Source: a virus | Length of the DNA: 56,517 nucleotides | Virus record (IMG/VR): IMGVR_UViG_3300033150_002389 | Direction: 5' to 3' (one strand) | Shown: positions 1 through 56,517 of the stretch, piece by piece | How the letters are laid out: every line of letters begins with the position of its first letter | How positions within the stretch are numbered: the first letter of the stretch is position 1 | Program-made: the position numbers and the translations under genes | The notes under the pieces: model-generated | What the model saw: the letters and a program-made list of their open reading frames with translations, nothing else | Told to the model about the DNA's origin: nothing | Databases searched by the model: none

Positions 1-70
1 TTCGCAATCTCGTATCGCCCGAATCTCCCCGTCTTGCACTTCGGAGATCCGGGCCGGAAGTCCCCCACGC
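1..70. repeat. terminal direct repeat; bases 1-70 are identical to 56448-56517 (circular or terminally redundant genome, unique length about 56447 bp)
   Basis: exact 70-nt identity between window start and window end, read directly. Confidence 0.9.
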
Positions 71-566
71 CTATCACCAGTCCGGCGCGGTTGATAATAT
101 CTGGCAGGGTATCCTTGATGAAGCTTTCGTTGAACATGTTCTCATCGATCCACATCTCCCACGTTGTCTCCCAGGGGAGGTCTATCCTGGCCCTGGAGCG
201 CAGGACCGCGTTCCCCTGCACTACCACCCTGCGGACATCCACTGCGTATTCGGTGATGCGTTTGCCATCACGCACCAGGATCAGCTCTTCCGGTTTCATC
301 TCCAGGATCGCGCCGCTCAGCACGCTCTTGACCGAGGTGCGACCCTGCTTGTAAGGCCCGGCGGCCTGGACGATGGATGAGCGAAATGCATCACCTGGCA
401 TGTAGAGAAATCCATCCTCGGTCTTGTACGCCGATAGCTCCGCTTCGTCTTCCGAGAGCGGGATTGACTGGCTGCGCGTCCTTACGCTGGCCTGGGCCAT
501 CATCGCTCTTGCGCTGTGCATCAGGATCGGCGTCAAACCTCTTACCGTTACTTCGATTTCATACAT
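1..566 (-). CDS. hypothetical protein, N-terminal 188 codons; frame runs off the window start and resumes across the junction (C-terminus at 56414)
   Basis: ATG at 566-564 preceded by AAGGAGG with 7-nt spacer; translation MYEIEVTVRGLTPILMH... is protein-like; absent from the ORF track because the window edge cuts it. Confidence 0.55.
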   Translation of the reverse strand, partial: MYEIEVTVRGLTPILMHSARAMMAQASVRTRSQSIPLSEDEAELSAYKTEDGFLYMPGDAFRSSIVQAAGPYKQGRTSVKSVLSGAILEMKPEELILVRDGKRITEYAVDVRRVVVQGNAVLRSRARIDLPWETTWEMWIDENMFNESFIKDTLPDIINRAGLVIGVGDFRPGSPKCKTGRFGRYEIA

Positions 567-802
567 CTGCTGTCCTCCTTACTGGTTTTTTGGTTTCCAT
601 GGCATGGCGAGGCTTGGCCCAACGTGGCCCAGCTTGGCAGGGCATGCCGTGGCTTGGCGGGGCGTGGCGGGGTTAGGCTAAACTCAAGCGTGACCAGGCC
701 TCCCTTAAACACCGCGGAGCAGAACTCCCAGCCCTGGCGCCTAAAATCGGCCTTGATGGTTTCGTAGAGATGCTGCTTGACTATGACGATTTTGGTGGTC
801 AT
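548..802 (-). CDS. hypothetical small protein
   Basis: ORF track; N-terminal 40 aa protein-like, C-terminal part is low complexity and runs through the GC-rich repeat block; no clear SD. Confidence 0.3.
   Translation of the reverse strand: MTTKIVIVKQHLYETIKADFRRQGWEFCSAVFKGGLVTLEFSLTPPRPAKPRHALPSWATLGQASPCHGNQKTSKEDSRCMKSK
598..676. repeat. GC-rich degenerate direct repeats (GGCATGGC, GCTTGGC, GGGTTAGGC motifs)
   Basis: repeated words read directly; a related block lies at 56341-56405 on the other side of the junction-spanning gene. Confidence 0.5.
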
Positions 803-965
803 GATTGGGGAAGTATATTAAAAGATTTACAACTTGTCAACTAAAAAAGATATGATTCGGCAATAAAAACCTACACTCAAGTGCCACTGGTGGAGAGATG
901 ATTGGCAAGGGTTAGTTATCTCGGTGGAAAGCTCTAGCGGGTATTATGAGGGAGGAATGAATGGC

Positions 966-1598
966 CTATAATTTGGGAATCTTTGTATCTATGAAATCCA
1001 CGTGTTCTTCCAGCTCCGGTTGAATAGGATTGCGTAGCGGATCAAGGCAAACCTGCATGCCTTCACGTCTCGCAAACTTCAAAGCAGGGACAATATCTGC
1101 ATCCCCGGTGATAATGATCAATAAATCAGCTATTCTTTTTATCGCTATGAGGGCTATATCAAGGCCGATCCTCATATCAACGGCCTTTTGCTCAATAAGG
1201 GGGCGAACATCGTGCTCAGAAAGATCATCAACAGATAGATTTTTGCTTATCAGTGATTTGAGTTTATCTGGAGCCAGTATCCATTCATTGTTTTTCCAAA
1301 CCGCCTTACCAAGGCGAAGGGCAAAGTTAGGCGTGGTTTTTATGGATTCGAATAACTTACTCTGGGCTTTGGCTACGGCGGTCTGACTGAAATCGATGGC
1401 TTTTTTTGATATGGGGTTATGCCCCTTTTTCTCTAAAGGGGCGGTATCATAATAGAAGATACGGTATAGATAATCGTTCTCCCGCAAATGCTTTAAGCAG
1501 TATTTGCGGATCTCAGGGCCTGAATAGTAAAATGTTTTGAGCTTATATATCCTTTTACGCATGAACCAACCATCAATCATGAATACAACTCTCCGCAT
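966..1598 (-). CDS. NYN-domain (PIN-like, LabA family) protein
   Basis: N-terminal VVFMIDGWF and central LLIIITGDADIVPALKFARREGMQV resemble NYN acidic motifs; AT-rich relative to the rest of the genome. Confidence 0.55.
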   Translation of the reverse strand: MRRVVFMIDGWFMRKRIYKLKTFYYSGPEIRKYCLKHLRENDYLYRIFYYDTAPLEKKGHNPISKKAIDFSQTAVAKAQSKLFESIKTTPNFALRLGKAVWKNNEWILAPDKLKSLISKNLSVDDLSEHDVRPLIEQKAVDMRIGLDIALIAIKRIADLLIIITGDADIVPALKFARREGMQVCLDPLRNPIQPELEEHVDFIDTKIPKL

Positions 1599-5232: not shown

Positions 5233-6306
5233 ATGAGAGAATTCGGAAAAATCCACACAAGGTACTGGTCCTGGGCTCAAGCCCACAACCTCACGGACCA
5301 GGTCAAGCTGATAGGAGCATACCTCCTTTCATGTGAGCACGGGAACTCCTTAGGCTGCTTCCGGCTCCCAAGAAGCTACATTGCGGAGGATCTGGGATAT
5401 AGTGTGGACATCGTGTCCACATCATGTCGACACCTTGAAAAATTAGGTTTTTTGGAGTACTGCGAGACCTCAAAATTTGTGCTGATCAAAAAATACCTCA
5501 AATGGAACCCTCCAAAAAACGAAAGTCACGCCCAGGGAATCTTGTCTATGGTCTCACAAATTATTCCCTCATCCTTTACATTGCTGGAATCACTGATGGA
5601 ATCCCTCAGGAGGTACGGAGGGAAGCATCTTAAAAGACAAGATGTGGACACTTTGTATCACACCTTGTCCCCCATGGTGTCAACACAGTGTCCACAAAGT
5701 GTGGAGACAAAAGAGACAGAGACAGAGATAGAGAAGGAGATAGAGATAGAGACAAAGAAGGAGAAGGAGATAGAGAAGGAGAATATGAGGGCCGCACCTG
5801 CGGACCCTCCTCACCCTAAAAATTCAAAAAAATCCGAGGGAGAGAAATTTCACTTCAAAGTCAAGGTGCCACTCCCAAAGAATTTCTATCCCACCAGCGA
5901 GATGAAAGCTTATGCGAAAAGATATCACATGCCCGAAGAGGAGGTCCCCTTTCAATTCGAAAAGTTTAAAGCTCACCACCAAAAGCTCGAAAGTAAATTC
6001 AACGACTGGATCGCTGCGTGGAGGAACTGGGTGCTCAAGTGGGTGGAGTTCAATAAACCGACCAGCGGTCCGCCCCTCCAGGAGCCAGTACAGAGTTCAC
6101 GGTGTAAAGGTTGCGGAGCTACGAACGTGATGATCGATCTGGAAACCGGATTGTGCGCCAAATGCTTCAGGGCAGTGGCCGCCCCGGATCTAGCTGGACT
6201 GGTGGATAAAGCGACCAAAGGCATGGATATGAGCGAGGAGGAGCGATTGCAGCAGCTGAAAAAACAATCCGAACAGCTCAAATCAAAGGAGGTGCCCTAC
6301 GCATGA
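5233..6306 (+). CDS. hypothetical protein with winged-helix-like N-terminus, Glu-rich dipeptide repeat and C-terminal CxxC-x13-CxxC zinc ribbon; replication-initiator candidate
   Basis: ORF track; CKGCGATNVMIDLETGLCAKC zinc ribbon; position in early region. Confidence 0.5.
   Translation: MREFGKIHTRYWSWAQAHNLTDQVKLIGAYLLSCEHGNSLGCFRLPRSYIAEDLGYSVDIVSTSCRHLEKLGFLEYCETSKFVLIKKYLKWNPPKNESHAQGILSMVSQIIPSSFTLLESLMESLRRYGGKHLKRQDVDTLYHTLSPMVSTQCPQSVETKETETEIEKEIEIETKKEKEIEKENMRAAPADPPHPKNSKKSEGEKFHFKVKVPLPKNFYPTSEMKAYAKRYHMPEEEVPFQFEKFKAHHQKLESKFNDWIAAWRNWVLKWVEFNKPTSGPPLQEPVQSSRCKGCGATNVMIDLETGLCAKCFRAVAAPDLAGLVDKATKGMDMSEEERLQQLKKQSEQLKSKEVPYA
5708..5784. repeat. tandem hexanucleotide repeats (A[CTA][AG][GA]AG, about 11 units) inside the 5233-6306 gene
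   Basis: read directly: acagagacagagatagagaaggagatagagatagagacaaagaaggagaaggagatagagaaggag. Confidence 0.6.
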
Positions 6307-7805: not shown

Positions 7806-7866
7806 CGATTTGCCCCGAAAGGGTATCATTCTTCCGCGATTTACCCCGAAAAAGCACCTTTCTTCC
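7806..7866. promoter_or_regulatory. two imperfect 30-bp direct repeats (CGATTTRCCCCGAAARRG...TTCTTCC)
   Basis: 7806-7835 and 7837-7866 read directly; intergenic, upstream of the 7895 gene and the packaging genes. Confidence 0.4.
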
Positions 7867-37200: not shown

Positions 37201-40200
37201 TCCGCACGCTTGGGGAAATATGGAAGAACCGCAAAGCTGGGTGGAAAGCTCAAAAGCCAGATACCACGGTCCTCGACCGCCTCATATCAGTGCCGGCACA
37301 TCACTTTGAGAAGGTCCCCGCTTTAAGGAGAATGTACGAGGCGGCTCTTGCCAGGCCCGACACCTACTATGAGTACCTGAATCTCCTAACCAAGAACAGT
37401 AAAGGTGAATACCTTACCAAAAAGCTGGAGGACTTCAGAAAGCGCCACAAACAGGACTACGCTAAGGTCAAGGCGTACCTAGTCAACCGCGACCGCAACC
37501 AAATAGGGTACAGGGTTGAGAAAGACGAGGGTAGCGACCTATGGAAGCTCAGGAAACCAAACGGCCAGTTAGTGGGCAGTTATGACTCTGAGGCCAAGGC
37601 ATGGGGCGCTGCCGTTCAAATGGAGGCTCAGGACCTTAGAAAGCGCGGCTTTCCCGACCAAGCCGTTGACGCGGTGGTGTCCTTCCGGCTAATCATGCAT
37701 AAAGGCTTTAATATCCTGTCAGCTTCGATGCGCGAAATTATCAGCCAATATGAGGAGTCGGGTACGGCACTACCCTCAGTAGCGGTCAGGCTGGACAACA
37801 AAAGGGTAGAAGTTGACCTCAAAACCGCCCTAGCCATGATGGGGGATATGCGAGGTTACTACTTCCCGCGCATAAGAAGGCCCGGGCGATTCGTGCTGTA
37901 CGCCGAAAAGAAGGGCGAAAACCCGATCATGGAATTCTTTGACACCAAAACGCTTCTTGCCAAGCGGCACACAGAACTCCAAAGGAAAGGGTACACCGTC
38001 ACGAAGGATCTCTCCCCCAAGATGCCGGAAGACGTCTTCGAAATGGCAGGCCAGGTCATTGCCATGCAGGCGCAGATCAATCAGGCCCTTGAGCGTATAC
38101 ATGCGCGCGGACTATCTTTAGAGGACTTTAACCTCCAGTGGACCGACAGGATGGTAAGGCCAGGGCTCAGGGACTTCGTTATCACCGGACCGACATCCAA
38201 GAGGATGACACGGGTCTTTAAGGAGCTGGGCGGAAAGTTCTATTCAGCGTATGAAGGGGAGCCGAGGGCCTGGCATTTCTACAACCCTGGCCCGAATTTC
38301 GACAAAAAGGTCGCAAAGGCGCTGGCCAACTCAGTTGGCATAGTTGACCAAGAGGTGCAGGTACTGTTCGCAAAAGCCATGGCCGAGCAAGTGGCCAACA
38401 TCATAAAGGGTCGTGGGCACCGTGCCCACATGATCCAGCGCCAAATGGCCAAGGGCAAGGATGTCTGGATCGGTTATGAGGAGGACCCGGCTATTGCCGC
38501 GGCGAAATATGCGTCGGGGTTGGCCGCAGGGGAGGCTAAAAGGATCGCAGCGCTTGACATGGTTCGAGCGTTCACTGGCACAGACATTACCTGGCAGCAG
38601 TACAAGACCCTTGAGGGCGAGGACGCCACGTATGAGGAGTGGCTCAACATGGTGGAGGACCGGCGGGTCAACCCCACGAAACAGCCCAATGCCTTCAGGG
38701 AAGGCAAAGCGTACCTGCAGGACGTGCTCAGGAACGAAGAGTGGATTGACCGGTTCGTGGGCACAGTCAAGGGCGTGGCGGTGCTGAAATATCTAGGCGG
38801 CCGCATCAGCGCCCCCTTGGTGAACCTCACTGCCATGGTAACGTCAGTCCCGGCAGCTATGGAAGGTATCGCTGGGATCCCGATACACAAGACCTTCCGT
38901 CTCATCGGCAACGCCTCCAGGCTTTACGGCCACTATAAATTCGGTGACAAGGATAAATTACCGCAGCACGTCAAGGACCTTTTTGAGGAGATCGAACAGA
39001 AAGGCTGGCACAAGTCGCAATACAATCGCGAAGCGCTGTCAGTTCTTGAGAGCAAGCTAGGCCGAGGGTGGAACAGGGCAATCGAATGGGCCATGCTCGG
39101 CTTCGGGGCTACCGAGCAACTCAACAGGGTTTCGACAATTGCAGGCACTTACCTTGGATTGAAGCTCCAAACACCCCAAGGGAGCTTTAACCACGACGAA
39201 GCCCTGCGCATTGCAAAGGAGGTCTCAGACAAGGCTCACGGAGTTTACGGAAAGGCGAATATCCCATACCTCGCTAGGGGCGCCAATCCTGCCGCGCAAA
39301 TTGCCAGAATGTTTTACGTATTCCGGACCTTTTCGCACAACTACCTTCTGACCATGAAGCGAGTGTGGGGTCCCGGCTGGAAGCCCGAGCACGCAAAGGC
39401 TTTTTCGTGGATGCTCCTGAGTCCAGCCGTGCTGGCCGGGACTGGGGCGACTGTCTCTACGCCTATCATAACGGCAATCGCTCAAGCCCTGGGCATAGGC
39501 GGAGAAGACCCAGAGGAAAAATTTTACGACTGGTTGAACCGGAATTTTGGCGAATACGCTGAGCGATTCGGCAGGTTCGGCGCTTTCGGTCTCGCAGGCG
39601 TATCCCTTAAGGGTTCGCTTCAGATCGGAATTACCGACATCCCAACGACGATACCCGAAATCCTTGGCGCTCCTGGAAGCGTCATATCTGAAACATTCTA
39701 CCGCGGTCCACAAAGCATTTTGCGTGGCGACGTCCTAAAGGGCATCGAAAATGAACTACCGCTCTTCATGGCCGGAATAGTAAAGGCATATAGAGAGACC
39801 ACAGAGGGGGTGACCACCAGAAACAATGCACCCGTCTTCTGGGGCAATGAACCGCTCCTCCCGGAGACGATTGATGCACTTTACAGAGCTCTCTCCTTTA
39901 ATCCCGCAAGGATCGCGGGGATTAGGGAGAAGCAATGGAAGGAGAGGCGCATTGAACAGAAATATCGAGAAATGAGGACGGATATCTACGCCAAGATCAA
40001 GCGCTTTTACCTGCGTCCCCTATCTGAACGGTCCAAGGCGGATTGGTTGGATATCATCGCTGAAATTCAAGATTACAACGAAGCGGTAAGGGCGCACGGG
40101 CTTGAGCGCCTCGCACCCCTCATCACCCGGAAATCCATACGAAACAATATCAGGCGGGCATTCCGGCCCCCAAAAAGGGAACGCCTAAGGCAGGCGATGC

Positions 40201-40205
40201 CATAA
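31245..40205 (+). CDS. giant polyvalent ejection protein (about 2986 aa) with pyrophosphatase-like, JAB/MPN and zincin HExxH domains
   Basis: TTG start with GAGGAG 8 nt upstream; DGDQVDVFIG (PPase signature-like), LVHNHPTGDPKPGKEDYQIT (JAB), HEYMH (zincin); C-terminal hydrophobic segments. Confidence 0.6.
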   Translation: MPNLNALIQSAEREAQAVTGVKANALTTAASPSTEEKDYQNYLLQYAVTNPENPAHHYDYRSAYRAGVKPIMWDDLPKEVKEEDIQQAITGERTGRPMSREEAIQFYSGHYMWPDQFKLPGHPVPPKKEAINALIAQAAEEAQATLQGTETEYHPWGAAKMTVYDALSGLSALPRTIGMGETARNVAEFYDKRAEADPDIREFKKASEQGRESIWTEALGSAGPTAMALGMRFIPYVGFPLAASYFWHLNKDEVKDLALAKGADEKTAERISWIGGTVNSALDVLGLEAIAGKMPFLRGPVKSVKHRLVGAAVRLMASTGGEGLTEGMQEVVGELSSEYAASKDVREFLDRVSQKQWWDKALAKAEKSLKVGSMMGAVFGGAASVAETRLQKRLKPEKATKPLEAPKDLSELIEEAEKEYTEILQQEVPRDRKEEERILRRERAQRQGRKEEEARRPVPHEGRGRGEAGAGGVFQGPQPTRPTEEAVRVEEEYQKGDRVETPEGAGEVLRVAPAETSGEEKLTVKLDEGETVEVSPAEEKVEKPSPPPEEVDEAAQEAEPAPTEAQKEAGNYKKGHINIQGMDISIENPKGSIREGVDKQGKKWKSKVAAHYGYIRRTEGKDGDQVDVFIGPRPETNRVFVIDQVDPETGLFDEHKAMVGFPTKKMAKTAYLRSYTKDWKGLGAITEMTVNQFKDWIRTGDSSAPLGLKEKRKVAKDATRGAAGNLLIKTSDQTIYESRQPVHALMLGEFGVKPEDVIDTGLIDKTGKEMWAGSKEIKPLTEEVAAAVREQRKREQQKKRAQRAAKAKTFRQWVALTGGINPQDKTWRGEIRDMRYTMNAAGKKVPAPGWPVGIWNRKARGVDERTHDAIEAGWLPTAATEDDFMQALEQNITTKITKAGAQEDVDTVVKEEEDKLEQEYERELARLKVKIKEEWDAGGQEYTPADLEGAARELEAYLAANERDEIKAASIEELEEIWRLFDEAVKPEPPVVEQALDEAWKEISQEDQDWLDKELGLKPAEEKQAERPPARKSPPESKSIDDAIGWVHAVQQSVWDPTEKKWHYTPREKIIRAIEKAKKAGARVERLPGTGRESAETWKLYDDEKGLVYVLQREPNGRTTWTSRRIPPSASKKSYEDIVKQLEAKGFYGTIDRLKRGLITLDEAHKELLGARLKIKVVPLNPEEFAAELKAKGVGRQESWSHWIRKTGLKPGMDAKDWYKIYDSVTLSKLEAAQKPKEVEKAQPREKAARPALELKPTEPTPQERVELLRAKGEIEKPIKAYREGDREIIKLPDGRKLIRGRDSEGRIYYEVEGSWEGLKELGFDPETFTIDQAKAARVFQQYLKPKAAIPKEKVKPPTTGKQKSLLAPEKGETLDIFERGVDKIGESGAQYIYAPTTPQEQYSLFDFKPAERQEDRKVPPRRRVRVSTTGRIRAAGELVSGPEDVAALLAFLRKSPQEFLYTVTTDKEGGILEIHKYAKGHSAGAIANPVELAGRILNIPGASEAYLVHNHPTGDPKPGKEDYQITSSVRSLLEAGDVELTSLILGGTEYVEMRPGEVAETTRKIRPRIRKISLPVKERSLLLGGAPQTRIVDSEDALKALKEQFNNDDGVMLLDRKNRVLAFVPFIKGRSMKQTTADVLRIAEATNASGMIVNNSVLTQARSDYVNALWNGIEGLTIVDVFWEAQSWASRQGRGKGPTKYATLLSETKLALRGEQPYRLSPRQFRNIKRTAKLVHSWLEKAGAPPEVLERIDVELKPIISLSGKNIAKSVKEWQEQGMGIRQIFGATTFDDYRAIMELALSLQNLKGLERTTYHEYMHVAQRWLLTKSDAEHLIKYFGSEEAAADAFAEFMVNRSSLKDKPNMIRAIMMRLRRYLQIIRNGLKGQGFTRPEDIWGKMVTGQYVPHFGAPEIEETTTAFSLAEPPGKEAEVEPRIVPTKHFSGTFDDWNRHVIETWEKYGGRKGTFQAEEKKYEQGFSRGSLGPLRTLGEIWKNRKAGWKAQKPDTTVLDRLISVPAHHFEKVPALRRMYEAALARPDTYYEYLNLLTKNSKGEYLTKKLEDFRKRHKQDYAKVKAYLVNRDRNQIGYRVEKDEGSDLWKLRKPNGQLVGSYDSEAKAWGAAVQMEAQDLRKRGFPDQAVDAVVSFRLIMHKGFNILSASMREIISQYEESGTALPSVAVRLDNKRVEVDLKTALAMMGDMRGYYFPRIRRPGRFVLYAEKKGENPIMEFFDTKTLLAKRHTELQRKGYTVTKDLSPKMPEDVFEMAGQVIAMQAQINQALERIHARGLSLEDFNLQWTDRMVRPGLRDFVITGPTSKRMTRVFKELGGKFYSAYEGEPRAWHFYNPGPNFDKKVAKALANSVGIVDQEVQVLFAKAMAEQVANIIKGRGHRAHMIQRQMAKGKDVWIGYEEDPAIAAAKYASGLAAGEAKRIAALDMVRAFTGTDITWQQYKTLEGEDATYEEWLNMVEDRRVNPTKQPNAFREGKAYLQDVLRNEEWIDRFVGTVKGVAVLKYLGGRISAPLVNLTAMVTSVPAAMEGIAGIPIHKTFRLIGNASRLYGHYKFGDKDKLPQHVKDLFEEIEQKGWHKSQYNREALSVLESKLGRGWNRAIEWAMLGFGATEQLNRVSTIAGTYLGLKLQTPQGSFNHDEALRIAKEVSDKAHGVYGKANIPYLARGANPAAQIARMFYVFRTFSHNYLLTMKRVWGPGWKPEHAKAFSWMLLSPAVLAGTGATVSTPIITAIAQALGIGGEDPEEKFYDWLNRNFGEYAERFGRFGAFGLAGVSLKGSLQIGITDIPTTIPEILGAPGSVISETFYRGPQSILRGDVLKGIENELPLFMAGIVKAYRETTEGVTTRNNAPVFWGNEPLLPETIDALYRALSFNPARIAGIREKQWKERRIEQKYREMRTDIYAKIKRFYLRPLSERSKADWLDIIAEIQDYNEAVRAHGLERLAPLITRKSIRNNIRRAFRPPKRERLRQAMP
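32533..32742 (+). CDS. embedded +1-frame ORF, 69-aa basic protein
   Basis: GTG with AGGAGG 6 nt upstream; GC3-rich codons in this frame while the host frame is low complexity with A-ending codons. Confidence 0.4.
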   Translation: MIVKRKKGYYVVSEHKGKDGKRRRLGGPYPTREEAEERLEQVEYFKARSRHAQRKKRSASRRNIRKETE

Positions 40206-40248
40206 GATGCCATAAAACGCCATAAACTGCCACGACTTGCCATACTTT
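40199..40248. repeat. five tandem 10-bp repeats (consensus GCCATAAnnT) overlapping the stop codon of the giant gene
   Basis: gccataagat gccataaaac gccataaact gccacgactt gccatacttt read directly. Confidence 0.55.
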
Positions 40249-40259
40249 GCGATGACCGA

Positions 40260-40288
40260 GGCGGCGCTTCAGCGCCGCCTGTTTTTTT
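40260..40288 (+). terminator. rho-independent terminator
   Basis: GGCGGCGC-ttca-GCGCCGCC stem followed by seven T. Confidence 0.7.
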
Positions 40289-40307
40289 ACCAAAAAGGAG
40301 ATTTGTC

Positions 40308-55527: not shown

Positions 55528-56313
55528 TTAGAGCACGGCGTCCTCCGCCTCGTCGGGGACGAATTCAGGCTCATCGGGGTTGATTTCCCGGCTGAGGCGA
55601 AACACTGTCTCCTTCAGTCGTCTTACCTGCTCCTTCAGCTTCTCGTTCTCCTTCTCGAGGGCGAGCCTGATCTCCAGCTCCCTCTCGTAGCGCTCGCGCC
55701 AGTCTATCACTGGCTCATCGGGTTTTCTTTCCGCCCCCTGCCTGGTGGGGCTCTCGAAGATCCTGTTGACCTTCTTTTGCTCCTCATCTTCCTTGATTTT
55801 GGGCTGGACAAGGTCACTGCGGGATGGCTTCTTGAATATTGCTGAGTCTGCGTGCGTTATTGCGCGTCTGAGCTTGGGATCCGCGACGCCTTTCTGCCTC
55901 GCGTGCTTTAGCTTGGTAATTTTCACACTCAGGGCTTCGGCTATCAGCTCCGGCTTCATTCCGGCCTTTGTGCCGATCAGGTAGCATCTGGCGTAGTCAA
56001 CCTCTGACAGGTTCTGGCCGTGCGTGGAATTCCAGGCCATTGCCCAGAACAGGAGATCCTTATCATCCTCAAATTCGTAGAGCTCTGCTTTGATGGTATC
56101 GGATTTATTCCTGGTGCAGGCGGCGACGCGGTGAAATCCGTCCACCACCCGCATTGACCTGGCCTCCACCCTCACGGGAGGGAACTCGGCCCCCAGGCTG
56201 TAGGCCTCCTGATACTTCCTGGCGGTGCTGTCGCTTATCGTGTGCCGGGGGTAGATGTTGAAGTCCAGCACCAGCTCTGCGATGTTGACTTCTTTACTCT
56301 CCAGATGCTTCAT
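55528..56313 (-). CDS. ParB N-terminal domain (ParB/Srx-like) protein
   Basis: VVDGFHRVAA resembles the ParB DGxHR box; AAGGGAG SD. Confidence 0.55.
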   Translation of the reverse strand: MKHLESKEVNIAELVLDFNIYPRHTISDSTARKYQEAYSLGAEFPPVRVEARSMRVVDGFHRVAACTRNKSDTIKAELYEFEDDKDLLFWAMAWNSTHGQNLSEVDYARCYLIGTKAGMKPELIAEALSVKITKLKHARQKGVADPKLRRAITHADSAIFKKPSRSDLVQPKIKEDEEQKKVNRIFESPTRQGAERKPDEPVIDWRERYERELEIRLALEKENEKLKEQVRRLKETVFRLSREINPDEPEFVPDEAEDAVL

Positions 56314-56340: not shown

Positions 56341-56405
56341 GCTTGGCTTGGCTTGGCGCGGCCGGACCCGGCTCGGCCGGGCTCGGCATGGCCGGGCTAG
56401 GCGTG
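56341..56405. repeat. GC-rich degenerate direct repeats (GCTTGGC x3, GGCTCGGCCGGGCTCGGCATGGCCGGGCTAGGC)
   Basis: read directly; related to the 598-676 block. Confidence 0.5.
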
Positions 56406-56413
56406 TAAAAGCA

Positions 56414-56517
56414 TTACTTGCCCCCCTTCTTAACCGGGAACTCATACTTCGCAATCTCGTATCGCCCGAATCTCCCCGTCTTGCACTTCGGAGATCCGGG
56501 CCGGAAGTCCCCCACGC
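56414..56517 (-). CDS. C-terminal end of the junction-spanning hypothetical gene (stop TAA at 56416-56414)
   Basis: frame continues from window position 1 through 56447 and reads ...RYEIAKYEFPVKKGGK-stop. Confidence 0.5.
   Translation of the reverse strand, partial: VGDFRPGSPKCKTGRFGRYEIAKYEFPVKKGGK
56448..56517. repeat. terminal direct repeat, second copy (identical to 1-70)
   Basis: exact identity. Confidence 0.9.

What the first reader, a model, noticed from the sequence alone, without database searches (positions are those of the whole stretch)
1..676. Junction-spanning gene flanked on both sides by related GC-rich repeat blocks, next to a ParB-like gene
Repeat block A (598-676) lies just upstream of the gene that starts at 566. 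Block B (56341-56405) lies between that gene's stop (56414) and the ParB-like gene start (56313). Both blocks share the words GGCATGGC, GCTTGGC and GGGYTAGGC. Their placement around a ParB-fold gene suggests centromere-like or origin-like binding-site arrays, or boundaries of a small cassette.
Basis: partly seen in the sequence, partly recalled or inferred. Interest (0 to 1): 0.5.

Follow-up and report, generated by a model that had tools for sequence, protein, structure and literature searches.

The report
Phage VIPR guide-RNA locus, variant repeat
The two GC-rich repeat blocks are most likely guide-RNA arrays of a recently described phage RNA-guided DNA-silencing system (VIPR), not ParB centromere sites; they use an unusual GCC version of the repeat, and one guide matches the terminase gene of rival phages.

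Summary
Both blocks exist where stated, but they are arrays of a 5-nt unit, not loose shared words: 16 units at 678→599 and 12 units at 56402→56343.

The gene they flank is a Vipr protein, the RAMP-fold protein of VIPR systems. A family profile hits PDB 36pp "SUSP1 Vipr" at E=1.6e-16. The ParB-fold gene downstream is the conserved accessory gene of this clade. So the ParB-centromere/origin reading is not supported.

The unusual part is the repeat. In 77 of 99 related loci, canonical GGY-NN arrays lie near vipr and always on vipr's strand. Here vipr's strand reads GCC-NN. The nearest relatives (40–42% identity) carry GTC-NN arrays with about 5% GCC units, and their Vipr G-loop changes from D-F/Y/W-R to D-Q-R. 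I therefore read the window as a G-Y-Y variant on the sense strand. An antisense canonical reading is not excluded.

Under the published 1-nt-skip rule, array B matches 10 of 12 units, in frame with skips at wobble positions. The match is to the YRMERDGRA(N/K) motif in the large terminase of six diverged phages or prophages, one in a Desulfobacterales MAG. There is no self-target. No target was found for array A.

The parts
812..840 (-). Sigma-70-like promoter (TTGACA-17-TATACT, 11 of 12 matches) upstream of array A and vipr. It would start a minus-strand transcript near 805.
   Evidence: No comparable site lies on the plus strand upstream of either array. This is a consensus match only, not shown to function.
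681..802 (-). Leader region or small ORF between the promoter and array A. The mechanical ORF 802→548 has no stop before the array and reads through it.
   Evidence: No Pfam or PHROG hit. Whether it is a real peptide or an RNA leader is undecided.
599..678 (-). vrRNA array A: 16 pentamer units read 678→599 on vipr's strand. Trinucleotides are GCC x12, plus ACC, GGC, GCT and GTT once each. NN = TA CC AC CC AA AC AT CT AA GG AC GG AA TC AT AT. It is followed by GG and an A-rich stretch, then the vipr RBS.
   Evidence: No target found.
1..566 (-). vipr, 5' part (codons 1 to about 189). It encodes a RAMP/RRM-fold protein with G-loop GVGDFRPGSPKCKTGRFGRY.
   Evidence: phrog_4652; PDB 36pp SUSP1 Vipr, E=1.6e-16; 6034 relatives; fold matches Csm3/Cas7 RAMPs.
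56414..56447 (-). vipr, 3' end and stop codon. Bases 56448-56517 duplicate bases 1-70 (assembly overlap).
56343..56402 (-). vrRNA array B: 12 pentamer units read 56402→56343. Trinucleotides are GCC x11 and GTC x1. NN = TA CG AT GA CG GA GG CG GC AA AA AA. Units 1-10 decode in frame to YRMERDGRA(N/K) of a foreign large terminase.
   Evidence: Target evidence.
55528..56313 (-). ParB-fold accessory gene (vap-like), 261 aa. It has an N-terminal ParB/Srx domain with VVDGFHR in place of the GERR box, then an HTH region, then a divergent coiled-coil and acidic C-terminus.
   Evidence: (phrog_1033). Homologs sit directly downstream of vipr in L015, L017-L021 and L023. ParB_N/RepB-type genes sit downstream in L103, L106 and L107.

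Best explanation
**What it is.** The locus is a VIPR (Viral Interference Programmable Repeat) system on a complete ~56.4-kb tailed-phage genome.

**Inferred steps.**
- A minus-strand operon transcript, probably starting at the promoter at 840→812, carries array A, vipr, array B and the ParB-fold accessory gene.
- The two arrays are the guide RNAs (vrRNAs).
- One Vipr protomer binds each 5-nt unit through the conserved trinucleotide.
- The two variable bases are presented for pairing with double-stranded DNA under the published rule of two paired bases then one skipped base.
- Binding represses the target gene. The ParB-fold protein assists at the DNA level.

**Shown here.**
- Vipr homology and fold.
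- The array structure.
- The conserved vipr-array-ParB-like synteny.
- A codon-phased match of array B to the large-terminase gene of other phages.
- No self-target.

**What is specific to this locus (inferred).** The conserved trinucleotide on vipr's strand is GCC (G-Y-Y), not the canonical GGY. It is a sister to the GTC repeats of its nearest relatives.
For: **1. Vipr identity.**
- A profile of the gene and six homologs hits PDB 36pp 'SUSP1 Vipr protein' at E=1.6e-16 over residues 38-187.
- The AF2 model matches Csm3/Cas7 RAMPs.
- The family has 6034 cluster representatives at E<=1e-3.

**2. Array structure.** There are 28 units: G at position 1 in 27, C at position 2 in 25, C at position 3 in 26, and positions 4-5 variable. 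This is far beyond shuffles and unique in the window.

**3. Match to the published definition.** Preprint 10.64898/2026.04.26.720920 describes:
- vrRNAs of 9-16 pentamer units flanking vipr;
- a minimal two-gene locus with a DNA-interacting vap gene;
- natural targets in competing phages, with the skipped base at the wobble position;
- no self-targets.

**4. Strand.**
- 77 of 99 related loci have arrays within 1.5 kb of vipr (2778 units). All are on vipr's strand and none on the opposite strand.
- The window's array positions match those of the closest ParB-associated loci: about 10 nt after the vipr stop, and 25-30 nt before the next ATG.
- The nearest relatives (L103, L101/L102, L107; 40-42% identity) have sense-strand GTC-NN arrays.
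- In those arrays the trinucleotides are GTC 167, GCC 9 and GTT 3 of 182 units, with no GGC. The window's deviant units are GTC, GCT and GTT.
- GTC-type Viprs replace the G-loop aromatic that stacks on G2 in SUSP1 (W178) with Q (preprint 10.64898/2026.04.26.720927). The middle-base pocket therefore does vary in this clade.
- A strong promoter-like site lies on the minus strand only.
- Minus-strand array RNA folds far less stably than plus-strand RNA: -26 and -31 against -41 and -44 kcal/mol.

**5. Target.**
- TANCGNATNGANCGNGANGGNCGNGCNAA has 5 exact hits in viral contigs and 1 in a Desulfobacterales MAG.
- All start at codon position 1 in YRMERDGRA(N/K) of a phrog_2 large terminase.
- The six genes are 69-78% identical in protein and 65-72% in DNA around the site, with different wobble bases.
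- A control with the same units in reversed order gave 0 hits.
- The deviant GTC unit lies inside the matched part.

**6. Not self.** The window has no homolog of the target and no self-match above shuffle level.
Against: - No RNA data exist. Transcription, processing and Vipr binding of either strand are inferred.
- The reverse complement of GCC-NN is a canonical C-NN-GG array, so sequence alone cannot exclude antisense vrRNAs.
- The window's Vipr keeps the canonical D-F-R G-loop and the thumb arginine. It lacks the Q seen in the GTC-type proteins.
- GCC as the majority unit was seen in this one locus only, among about 105 examined. No close relative of this Vipr was found, so GCC itself has no comparative support.
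- Array A has no identified target.
- The six terminase hits are homologs, so they count as one family-level event. By my rough estimate, one random exact hit per 20-base pattern is not rare in collections this size. L115 looks like such a chance hit.
- The last two AA units of array B do not match the target.
- The ParB-fold protein's role is unknown.
Confidence: 0.68

Rival explanations
1. It is a VIPR system with canonical GGY-NN vrRNAs transcribed from the plus strand, antisense to vipr and to the whole operon. Array A would be divergent from the vipr start, and array B would converge on the vipr 3' end.
For: - The plus strand reads C-NN-GG in 24 of 28 units, which is a perfect canonical consensus.
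- The window's Vipr retains the residues that read G-G-Y in SUSP1: thumb Arg and G-loop D-aromatic-R.
- The predicted double-stranded DNA target is identical under this reading.
- In SUSP1, unwinding proceeds from the 3' end and the 5' units are flexible. That would fit the two unmatched units lying at the 5' end in this orientation.
Against: - None of 77 array-bearing related loci has opposite-strand arrays.
- No promoter-like site lies upstream of either array on the plus strand.
- Plus-strand array B would fold into a near-perfect hairpin of -44 kcal/mol, z=-2.9.
- Only 1 of 28 units has T at the Y position, against about 22-31% T in canonical relatives.
- The deviations at the 'GG' positions are mostly G→A, which reads as pyrimidine-for-pyrimidine changes on the other strand.
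- The nearest relatives prove that non-GGY sense-strand repeats exist in this clade.
Confidence: 0.22
2. One reading: the blocks are DNA binding-site arrays (centromere-like parS, or iteron/origin-like) for the adjacent ParB-like protein, serving partition or replication of the element.
For: - The neighbouring protein does have a ParB N-domain plus HTH fold.
- It is always found next to such arrays in this clade.
- ParB-family proteins such as KorB and Noc act as DNA-bound silencers.
- DNA binding by this protein to the arrays was not tested.
Against: - The arrays are direct 5-nt repeats with hypervariable dinucleotides, not palindromes or repeated identical sites.
- Their NN content differs completely between loci while the conserved trinucleotide stays.
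- In most Vipr loci, arrays flank vipr without any ParB-like gene.
- Array B decodes in frame to a foreign terminase motif, which a centromere would not do.
- The protein has DGFHR where CTP-dependent ParBs have the GERR box.
- No ParA-type partner was found among the neighbouring genes tested.
Confidence: 0.05
3. The blocks have no function of their own. They would be either low-complexity GC-rich spacers, or coding sequence such as the C-terminal tail of the small ORF 802→548.
For: - An ORF without a stop runs through array A.
- Gene callers elsewhere translate such arrays. For example, the N-terminus of P0141 is MARLGEAGQGVARPG.
Against: - The strict 5-nt phase is incompatible with codon periodicity and far exceeds shuffles.
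- Array B lies in a short intergenic gap with no ORF of its own apart from a 40-aa mechanical one.
- Both arrays share the family-wide placement next to vipr.
- Array B has a codon-phased foreign target.
Confidence: 0.03

Closest known systems
VIPR systems (Vipr protein + vrRNA), as described for Escherichia phage SUSP1 and a Pseudomonas fulva prophage (type II); bioRxiv 10.64898/2026.04.26.720920 and 10.64898/2026.04.26.720927
   Same: - A single small RAMP protein homologous to SUSP1 Vipr.
- Arrays of 12-16 pentamer units, each a conserved trinucleotide plus a variable dinucleotide, directly upstream and downstream of vipr.
- A minimal locus with one DNA-interacting accessory gene, carried on a phage.
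- A guide that matches a coding sequence of other phages under the 1-nt-skip rule, with skips at wobble positions.
- No self-target.
   Different: - The conserved trinucleotide on vipr's strand is GCC (G-Y-Y), not GGY.
- No conserved 3' tail or pseudoknot is shared by the two arrays. Rfam finds nothing.
- The accessory gene has a ParB fold, which the held text of the preprints does not mention.
- The target is a terminase gene, not a satellite or a lysis-lysogeny regulator.
- The preprint lists alternative repeats NNNGG, YNNNG and NNNNG. Whether 'YNNNG' is this G-Y-Y class written in another register cannot be told without its figure S17.
GTC-NN VIPR loci found here: L103, L107, L101/L102 (metagenomic contigs; Vipr proteins P0178, P0249, P0173)
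   Same: - They are the nearest Vipr relatives (40-42% identity).
- Their arrays lie on vipr's strand.
- The middle base of the trinucleotide is a pyrimidine, with GCC as the minority unit.
- A ParB_N-type gene lies downstream in L103 and L107.
- They share the G-loop insertion (PGAPKTPG against PGSPKCKTG) and the RSRAR thumb.
   Different: - They use T, not C, as the majority middle base.
- They have Q in place of the G-loop aromatic, whereas the window keeps F.
- Their arrays are much longer, about 220-440 nt, staggered and punctuated by ...GTCAGGTCAGGTG....
Class 1 CRISPR-Cas effector backbones (Cas7/Csm3 RAMPs on crRNA)
   Same: - RRM/RAMP fold with a glycine-rich loop and thumb.
- One protomer per fixed RNA step.
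- RNA-guided recognition of foreign DNA.
   Different: - No CRISPR repeat-spacer array and no other cas genes.
- The step is 5 nt with only 2 nt read per unit, not 6 nt with 5 read.
- The system is phage-encoded.
- There is no sequence-level match to any Cas family.
ParB/Noc/KorB family of DNA-binding clamps and silencers
   Same: The accessory protein has the ParB N-domain plus HTH fold and weak ParB_N/RepB profile matches within its family.
   Different: - It has DGFHR where the CTP-binding GERR motif would be.
- No parS-like palindrome and no ParA partner were seen.
- It is genetically tied to vipr and vrRNA arrays, not to a partition locus.

Membership tests
VIPR system | Vipr protein: a small RAMP/RRM-fold protein homologous to characterised Vipr | tested here: met
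   - The family profile hits PDB 36pp SUSP1 Vipr at E=1.6e-16.
- The single sequence alone gives only E=0.34.
- The AF2 model (pLDDT 75) matches Csm3/Cas7.
- PHROG phrog_4652, E=1e-14.
VIPR system | Residues that hold the conserved trinucleotide in SUSP1 Vipr (thumb R138; G-loop D177-W178-R179; H17) | tested here: inconclusive
   - R125 and D169-F170-R171 align to R138 and D177-W178-R179.
- H17 exists at the same number in the window protein, but the N-terminus is outside the HMM alignment.
- Conservation fits a GGY reader, yet the GTC-type relatives keep all of these residues except the aromatic.
VIPR system | Tandem pentanucleotide arrays (at least 4 units, typically 9-16) in the intergenic regions flanking vipr | tested here: met
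   16 and 12 units, 32 nt upstream and 11 nt downstream of vipr.
VIPR system | Repeat consensus YNNGG (GGY/NN) on the transcribed vrRNA strand, which is vipr's strand in all relatives examined | tested here: not met
   - Vipr's strand reads GCC-NN.
- YNNGG appears only on the opposite strand, an arrangement seen in 0 of 77 array-bearing related loci.
- For this reason the locus is filed as a variant, not a canonical member.
VIPR system | Adjacent accessory (vap) gene with a predicted DNA-interacting function | tested here: met
   The ParB-fold gene lies 29 nt after array B. Homologs are in the same position in at least 7 loci, and ParB_N/RepB-type genes in 3 more.
VIPR system | Guides match foreign mobile elements under the 1-nt-skip rule (at least 80% NN match), with skips at wobble positions and no self-target | tested here: met
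   - Array B: 10 of 12 units (83%) match, in frame, in six diverged terminase genes. The control gave 0 hits.
- No self-target was found.
- Array A: no target found.
VIPR system | Conserved structured 3' tail (a pseudoknot in the type II SUSP1 clade) | tested here: not met
   - The sequences after the two arrays are unrelated on either strand.
- There is no Rfam match.
- The closest canonical relatives also lack a long tail and end in CAAGG CAAGG.
- This feature is type-specific, not family-wide.
VIPR system | vrRNAs expressed as ~100-nt RNAs that co-purify with Vipr, and Vipr-dependent repression of a matching target | not testable with these tools
   This needs sRNA-seq, a pull-down and a reporter assay.
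ParABS partition / ParB-parS centromere | ParB N-terminal domain plus HTH DNA-binding fold | tested here: met
   Foldseek gives ParB, Noc, KorB and pNOB8 ParB-N at E 4e-6 to 1e-4. The profile hits Spo0J 1vz0 at E=0.003.
ParABS partition / ParB-parS centromere | CTP-binding GERRxR box in the N-domain | tested here: not met
   The window protein and its homologs have (V/I)DGFHR at that position.
ParABS partition / ParB-parS centromere | Palindromic parS sites or identical iterated binding sites | tested here: not met
   The blocks are direct 5-nt repeats with variable dinucleotides.
ParABS partition / ParB-parS centromere | Adjacent ParA-type ATPase partner | tested here: not met
   None of the nine neighbouring ORFs tested has a ParA-like hit. 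The rest of the window was not scanned for ParA.
CRISPR-Cas | Repeat-spacer array (repeats of about 23-50 nt with unique spacers) and a cas gene set | tested here: not met
   There is no such array in the tandem-repeat scan of the whole window. No Cas family hits were found for the locus proteins in PADLOC or Pfam.

The most novel reading that the evidence does not exclude
The Vipr family contains lineages whose RNA 'handle' has been recoded at its middle base: G-G-Y becomes G-T-C, with a matching G-loop aromatic-to-Gln change, and here G-C-C, with the aromatic kept. These would be naturally orthogonal Vipr/vrRNA pairs. Such pairs could coexist with, or evade, canonical VIPRs. They would also give a direct genetic handle on how the protein reads its repeat. 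In this phage the recoded system, together with a ParB-fold clamp-like partner, is aimed at the packaging terminase of rival Desulfobacterales-type phages.
Probability: 0.5. Interest if true: 0.72.

Novelty: new variant of a known kind. Interest (0 to 1): 0.6.

Why it matters
VIPR was described only in 2026 as an RNA-guided DNA-recognition system that reads two bases and skips one. It has been proposed as older than CRISPR.

This locus adds three testable things:
- **A new repeat code.** Together with its GTC relatives, it gives a natural repeat code that differs at the base the protein holds most tightly. In the GTC branch this comes with a co-varying G-loop residue. That is the kind of contrast needed to map specificity and to build orthogonal programmable binders.
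- **A ParB-fold accessory gene.** It is tied to VIPR across many contigs, which hints at a clamp or spreading type of silencing partner.
- **A concrete natural target.** The guide matches a conserved terminase motif and tolerates every wobble variant across phages only 65-72% identical in DNA. This shows how the skip rule gives broad anti-phage coverage.

For annotation, it also shows that GC-rich 'repeat blocks' next to small unannotated genes in phages can be guide arrays, and that scans for the YNNGG motif on the gene's strand will miss this class.

Tried and rejected
**Family and RNA library searches**
- Pfam and PADLOC on the junction protein gave no hit. The single-sequence PDB search was not significant.
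- Rfam on both ends of the window returned only sub-threshold snoRNA noise.

**Search for close relatives**
- Exact-word searches for close relatives of this Vipr in viral, metagenome and genome collections found none.
- Alignment A2 was too diverse for locus finding.
- The nearest cluster representatives are only about 40% identical.
- The G-loop insertion does not mark repeat type. L109, which has a similar insertion, is canonical. L108 showed no clear array.

**Deciding the strand**
- Base composition, the conserved array ends and the polarity of the unmatched target units each fit both strands. I did not count them as decisive.
- No sigma-70-like promoter was found for a plus-strand vrRNA.

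**Target searches**
- Self-targeting under skip rules 0-2 stayed at shuffle level.
- Three 10-unit blocks of array A gave 0 hits. Array A also does not match the terminase-bearing contigs.
- The L115 hit for array B units 3-12 lies in an AT-rich 417-aa ORF that does not look like a terminase. I treated it as probable chance.

**Other**
- The sample of origin could not be retrieved.
Full report
**Observation**

The window is a circular element written with a 70-bp overlap. The junction-spanning gene is a 199-aa ORF on the minus strand: 566→1, then 56447→56414.

The blocks are more regular than 'shared words' suggests. Each is a phased array of a 5-nt unit. In any run of ten consecutive pentamers, 7-9 carry GGC in phase on the plus strand. 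The maximum is 3-4 in 50 shuffles of the genome, and no other place in the window reaches this.

Read on the gene's own (minus) strand:
- Array A is 16 units, 678→599.
- Array B is 12 units, 56402→56343.
- The trinucleotides are GCC x23, and GTC, GCT, GTT, GGC and ACC once each.
- Each trinucleotide is followed by two variable bases.

GC is 71% and 78% in the arrays, against 53% for the window.

**What the flanked gene is**

Pfam and PADLOC find nothing for it, and PHROGs places it in an unannotated family. A profile of the protein with six ~35%-identical homologs matches one solved structure, PDB 36pp 'SUSP1 Vipr protein', at E=1.6e-16 over residues 38-187. The AlphaFold model (pLDDT 75) matches Csm3/Cas7 RAMP subunits of type III and type VII CRISPR effectors. 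An exhaustive profile search finds 6034 cluster representatives at E<=1e-3.

Two 2026 preprints describe this family:
- VIPR systems consist of a Vipr protein and vrRNAs built of 9-16 YNNGG units. The conserved GGY is held by the protein, and the NN pair is presented to the target.
- The complex binds double-stranded DNA by pairing two bases and skipping one.
- Natural targets lie in competing phages, mostly in coding sequence with the skipped base at the wobble position.
- No self-targets were found.
- Loci are minimal: vipr plus one accessory 'vap' gene.

The window's blocks fit this anatomy.

**The neighbouring gene**

The 261-aa protein has only a PHROG 'ParB-like' hit. Its homologs sit immediately downstream of vipr, on the same strand, in L015, L017-L021 and L023. 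ParB_N- or RepB-annotated genes hold the same position in L103, L106 and L107. In L100 a ParB-like gene lies upstream of vipr instead.

A family profile weakly matches Spo0J/ParB. The AF2 model, confident over residues 1-155, matches ParB, Noc, KorB and pNOB8 ParB-N at E down to 4e-6. The protein has DGFHR where CTP-binding ParBs have GERR.

It is therefore the conserved accessory gene of this VIPR clade. The arrays are not its centromere:
- They are direct 5-nt repeats with hypervariable dinucleotides.
- Their NN content differs completely between loci.
- Most Vipr loci have arrays without any ParB-like gene.

**The strand problem**

On the plus strand the arrays read as canonical C-NN-GG, but vipr and all its neighbours are on the minus strand.

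In 99 related loci, 77 have YNNGG arrays within 1.5 kb of vipr (2778 units). All are on vipr's strand and none on the opposite strand. In vipr orientation the window has exactly the geometry of its ParB-associated relatives, but reads GCC-NN where they read GGC-NN.

The nearest relatives resolve most of this:
- L103, L101/L102 and L107 (Vipr 40-42% identical) carry long arrays on vipr's strand whose trinucleotide is GTC. These cannot be canonical on either strand.
- In them the only common alternative is GCC: GTC 167, GCC 9 and GTT 3 of 182 units, with no GGC. The middle position therefore reads a pyrimidine.
- A motif-agnostic scan of all loci gives GGC in 40, GGT in 17, GTC in 3, and GCC in the window only.
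- All three GTC-type Viprs have GVGD-Q-RP where the others have D-F/Y/W-R. This is the aromatic that stacks on G2 in SUSP1.
- The window's Vipr keeps F170 but shares their G-loop insertion and the RSRAR thumb.

Further points favour the minus strand:
- An 11-of-12 sigma-70-like promoter lies at 840→812 on the minus strand. Nothing comparable lies upstream of either array on the plus strand.
- Array RNA folds much less stably from the minus strand: -26 and -31 kcal/mol against -41 and -44. Plus-strand B would form a near-perfect hairpin.
- The window's deviant units are pyrimidine-for-pyrimidine changes on the minus strand.

I conclude, at about 70%, that the vrRNAs are sense-strand G-Y-Y/NN repeats. 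Antisense canonical vrRNAs remain possible, at about 20%. The retained canonical contact residues are the main argument for that reading.

**Target**

Converting array B to the published 1-nt-skip pattern gives TANCGNATNGANCGNGANGGNCGNGCNAANAANAA. Its first ten units (20 specified bases) have five exact matches in the viral contig collection and one in a Desulfobacterales MAG.

- All six start at codon position 1, so every skipped base is a wobble base.
- All six lie in the motif GE(V/A)-YRMERDGRA(N/K)-VV..SAFNHPNV of a ~541-aa protein.
- That protein is a large terminase subunit: phrog_2, E=7e-25, with Walker A and Walker B motifs upstream.
- The six genes are 69-78% identical in protein and 65-72% in DNA around the site, and they differ at the wobble positions.
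- Ten of twelve units match (83%), which passes the preprint's 80% criterion. The one GTC unit lies inside the matched part.
- A control with the same units in reversed order gave no hit.

The hits are homologs, so this is one family-level event, not six. By my rough estimate, a single chance hit per pattern is not rare in collections this size, and L115 is probably one. What makes the terminase match convincing is its codon phase and its persistence across diverged homologs.

The window has no homolog of this terminase. Its own TerL is phrog_38. There is no self-match above shuffle level. No target was found for array A. The predicted double-stranded target is the same for either strand of the array, so this result supports guide function but does not settle the strand.

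**Context and novelty**

The window is a complete tailed-phage genome, with terminase, portal, head-closure protein, helicase and SbcCD. VIPR itself is already described.

The following are not in the held text of the two preprints:
- the G-Y-Y repeat class;
- its GCC form here;
- the co-varying G-loop residue in the GTC branch;
- the ParB-fold accessory gene;
- a terminase target.

The first preprint does list alternative consensuses NNNGG, YNNNG and NNNNG. One of them may be this class written in another register, and its figures are not available to me. I therefore rate the locus a new variant of a known kind.

Noticed in passing
window 40190-40290: Five to six 10-nt-period repeats of (Y)GCCATAA (GATGCCATAA GATGCCATAA AACGCCATAA ACTGCCACGA CTTGCCATAC). 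They lie at and just past the stop (40205) of the 3015-aa ORF. A strong GC hairpin plus T-run terminator follows (GAGGCGGCGCTTCAGCGCCGCCTGTTTTTTT). This is not a VIPR-type array, because the period is 10 and there is no variable dinucleotide pattern.
   Followed up: partly
window 1-70 = 56448-56517: An exact 70-bp terminal overlap shows that the record is a circular or circularly permuted assembly. ORF lists miss the junction gene for this reason.
   Followed up: yes
L103 2772-2989 and 3561-4001; L107 1190-1530; L101 3574-3646: These metagenomic VIPR loci have long sense-strand GTC-NN arrays, staggered and punctuated by ...GTCAGGTCAGGTG.... Their Vipr proteins carry Gln in place of the G-loop aromatic (GVGDQRPGAPKTPG).
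   Followed up: partly
window 966-1598 (-): A NYN-domain protein (Pfam NYN E=2e-6; phrog_5783 E=2e-58; weak PADLOC HEC-09 and NYN hits) is encoded just upstream of the VIPR promoter, on the same strand. A possible RNase link to vrRNA processing or defence was not examined.
   Followed up: no
window 17-28 / 43-54 (also 56464-56475 / 56490-56501): A 12-nt inverted repeat, 92% complementary, lies inside the 3' end of vipr. Its loop encodes the G-loop insertion (PGSPKCKTG) that distinguishes this Vipr from most relatives.
   Followed up: no
window 548-802 (-); P0141 N-terminus: Mechanical ORFs and public gene calls read straight through vrRNA arrays, for example P0141, which starts MARLGEAGQGVARPGMARRG. 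Such Gly/Ala/Arg/Pro-rich N- or C-terminal extensions in Vipr-neighbourhood proteins are likely annotation artefacts.
   Followed up: partly
L115 12771-12799: Array B units 3-12 match exactly an AT-rich contig at ..IIERDGRANNK.. in a 417-aa ORF that does not look like a terminase. It shares the ERDGRAN peptide with the real target and is probably a chance match.
   Followed up: partly
L100 2398-2901: In this 42%-identical relative the ParB-like gene lies upstream of vipr, with canonical arrays on both sides of it. A DnaB-type helicase gene follows vipr. Gene order in the module is therefore not fixed.
   Followed up: no
window 5710-5783 and 7806-7866: There is an AAAGAG-type purine repeat (about 12 copies, with nested 18- and 30-nt periods) and a 31-nt tandem duplication. 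Neither is related to the finding.
   Followed up: no
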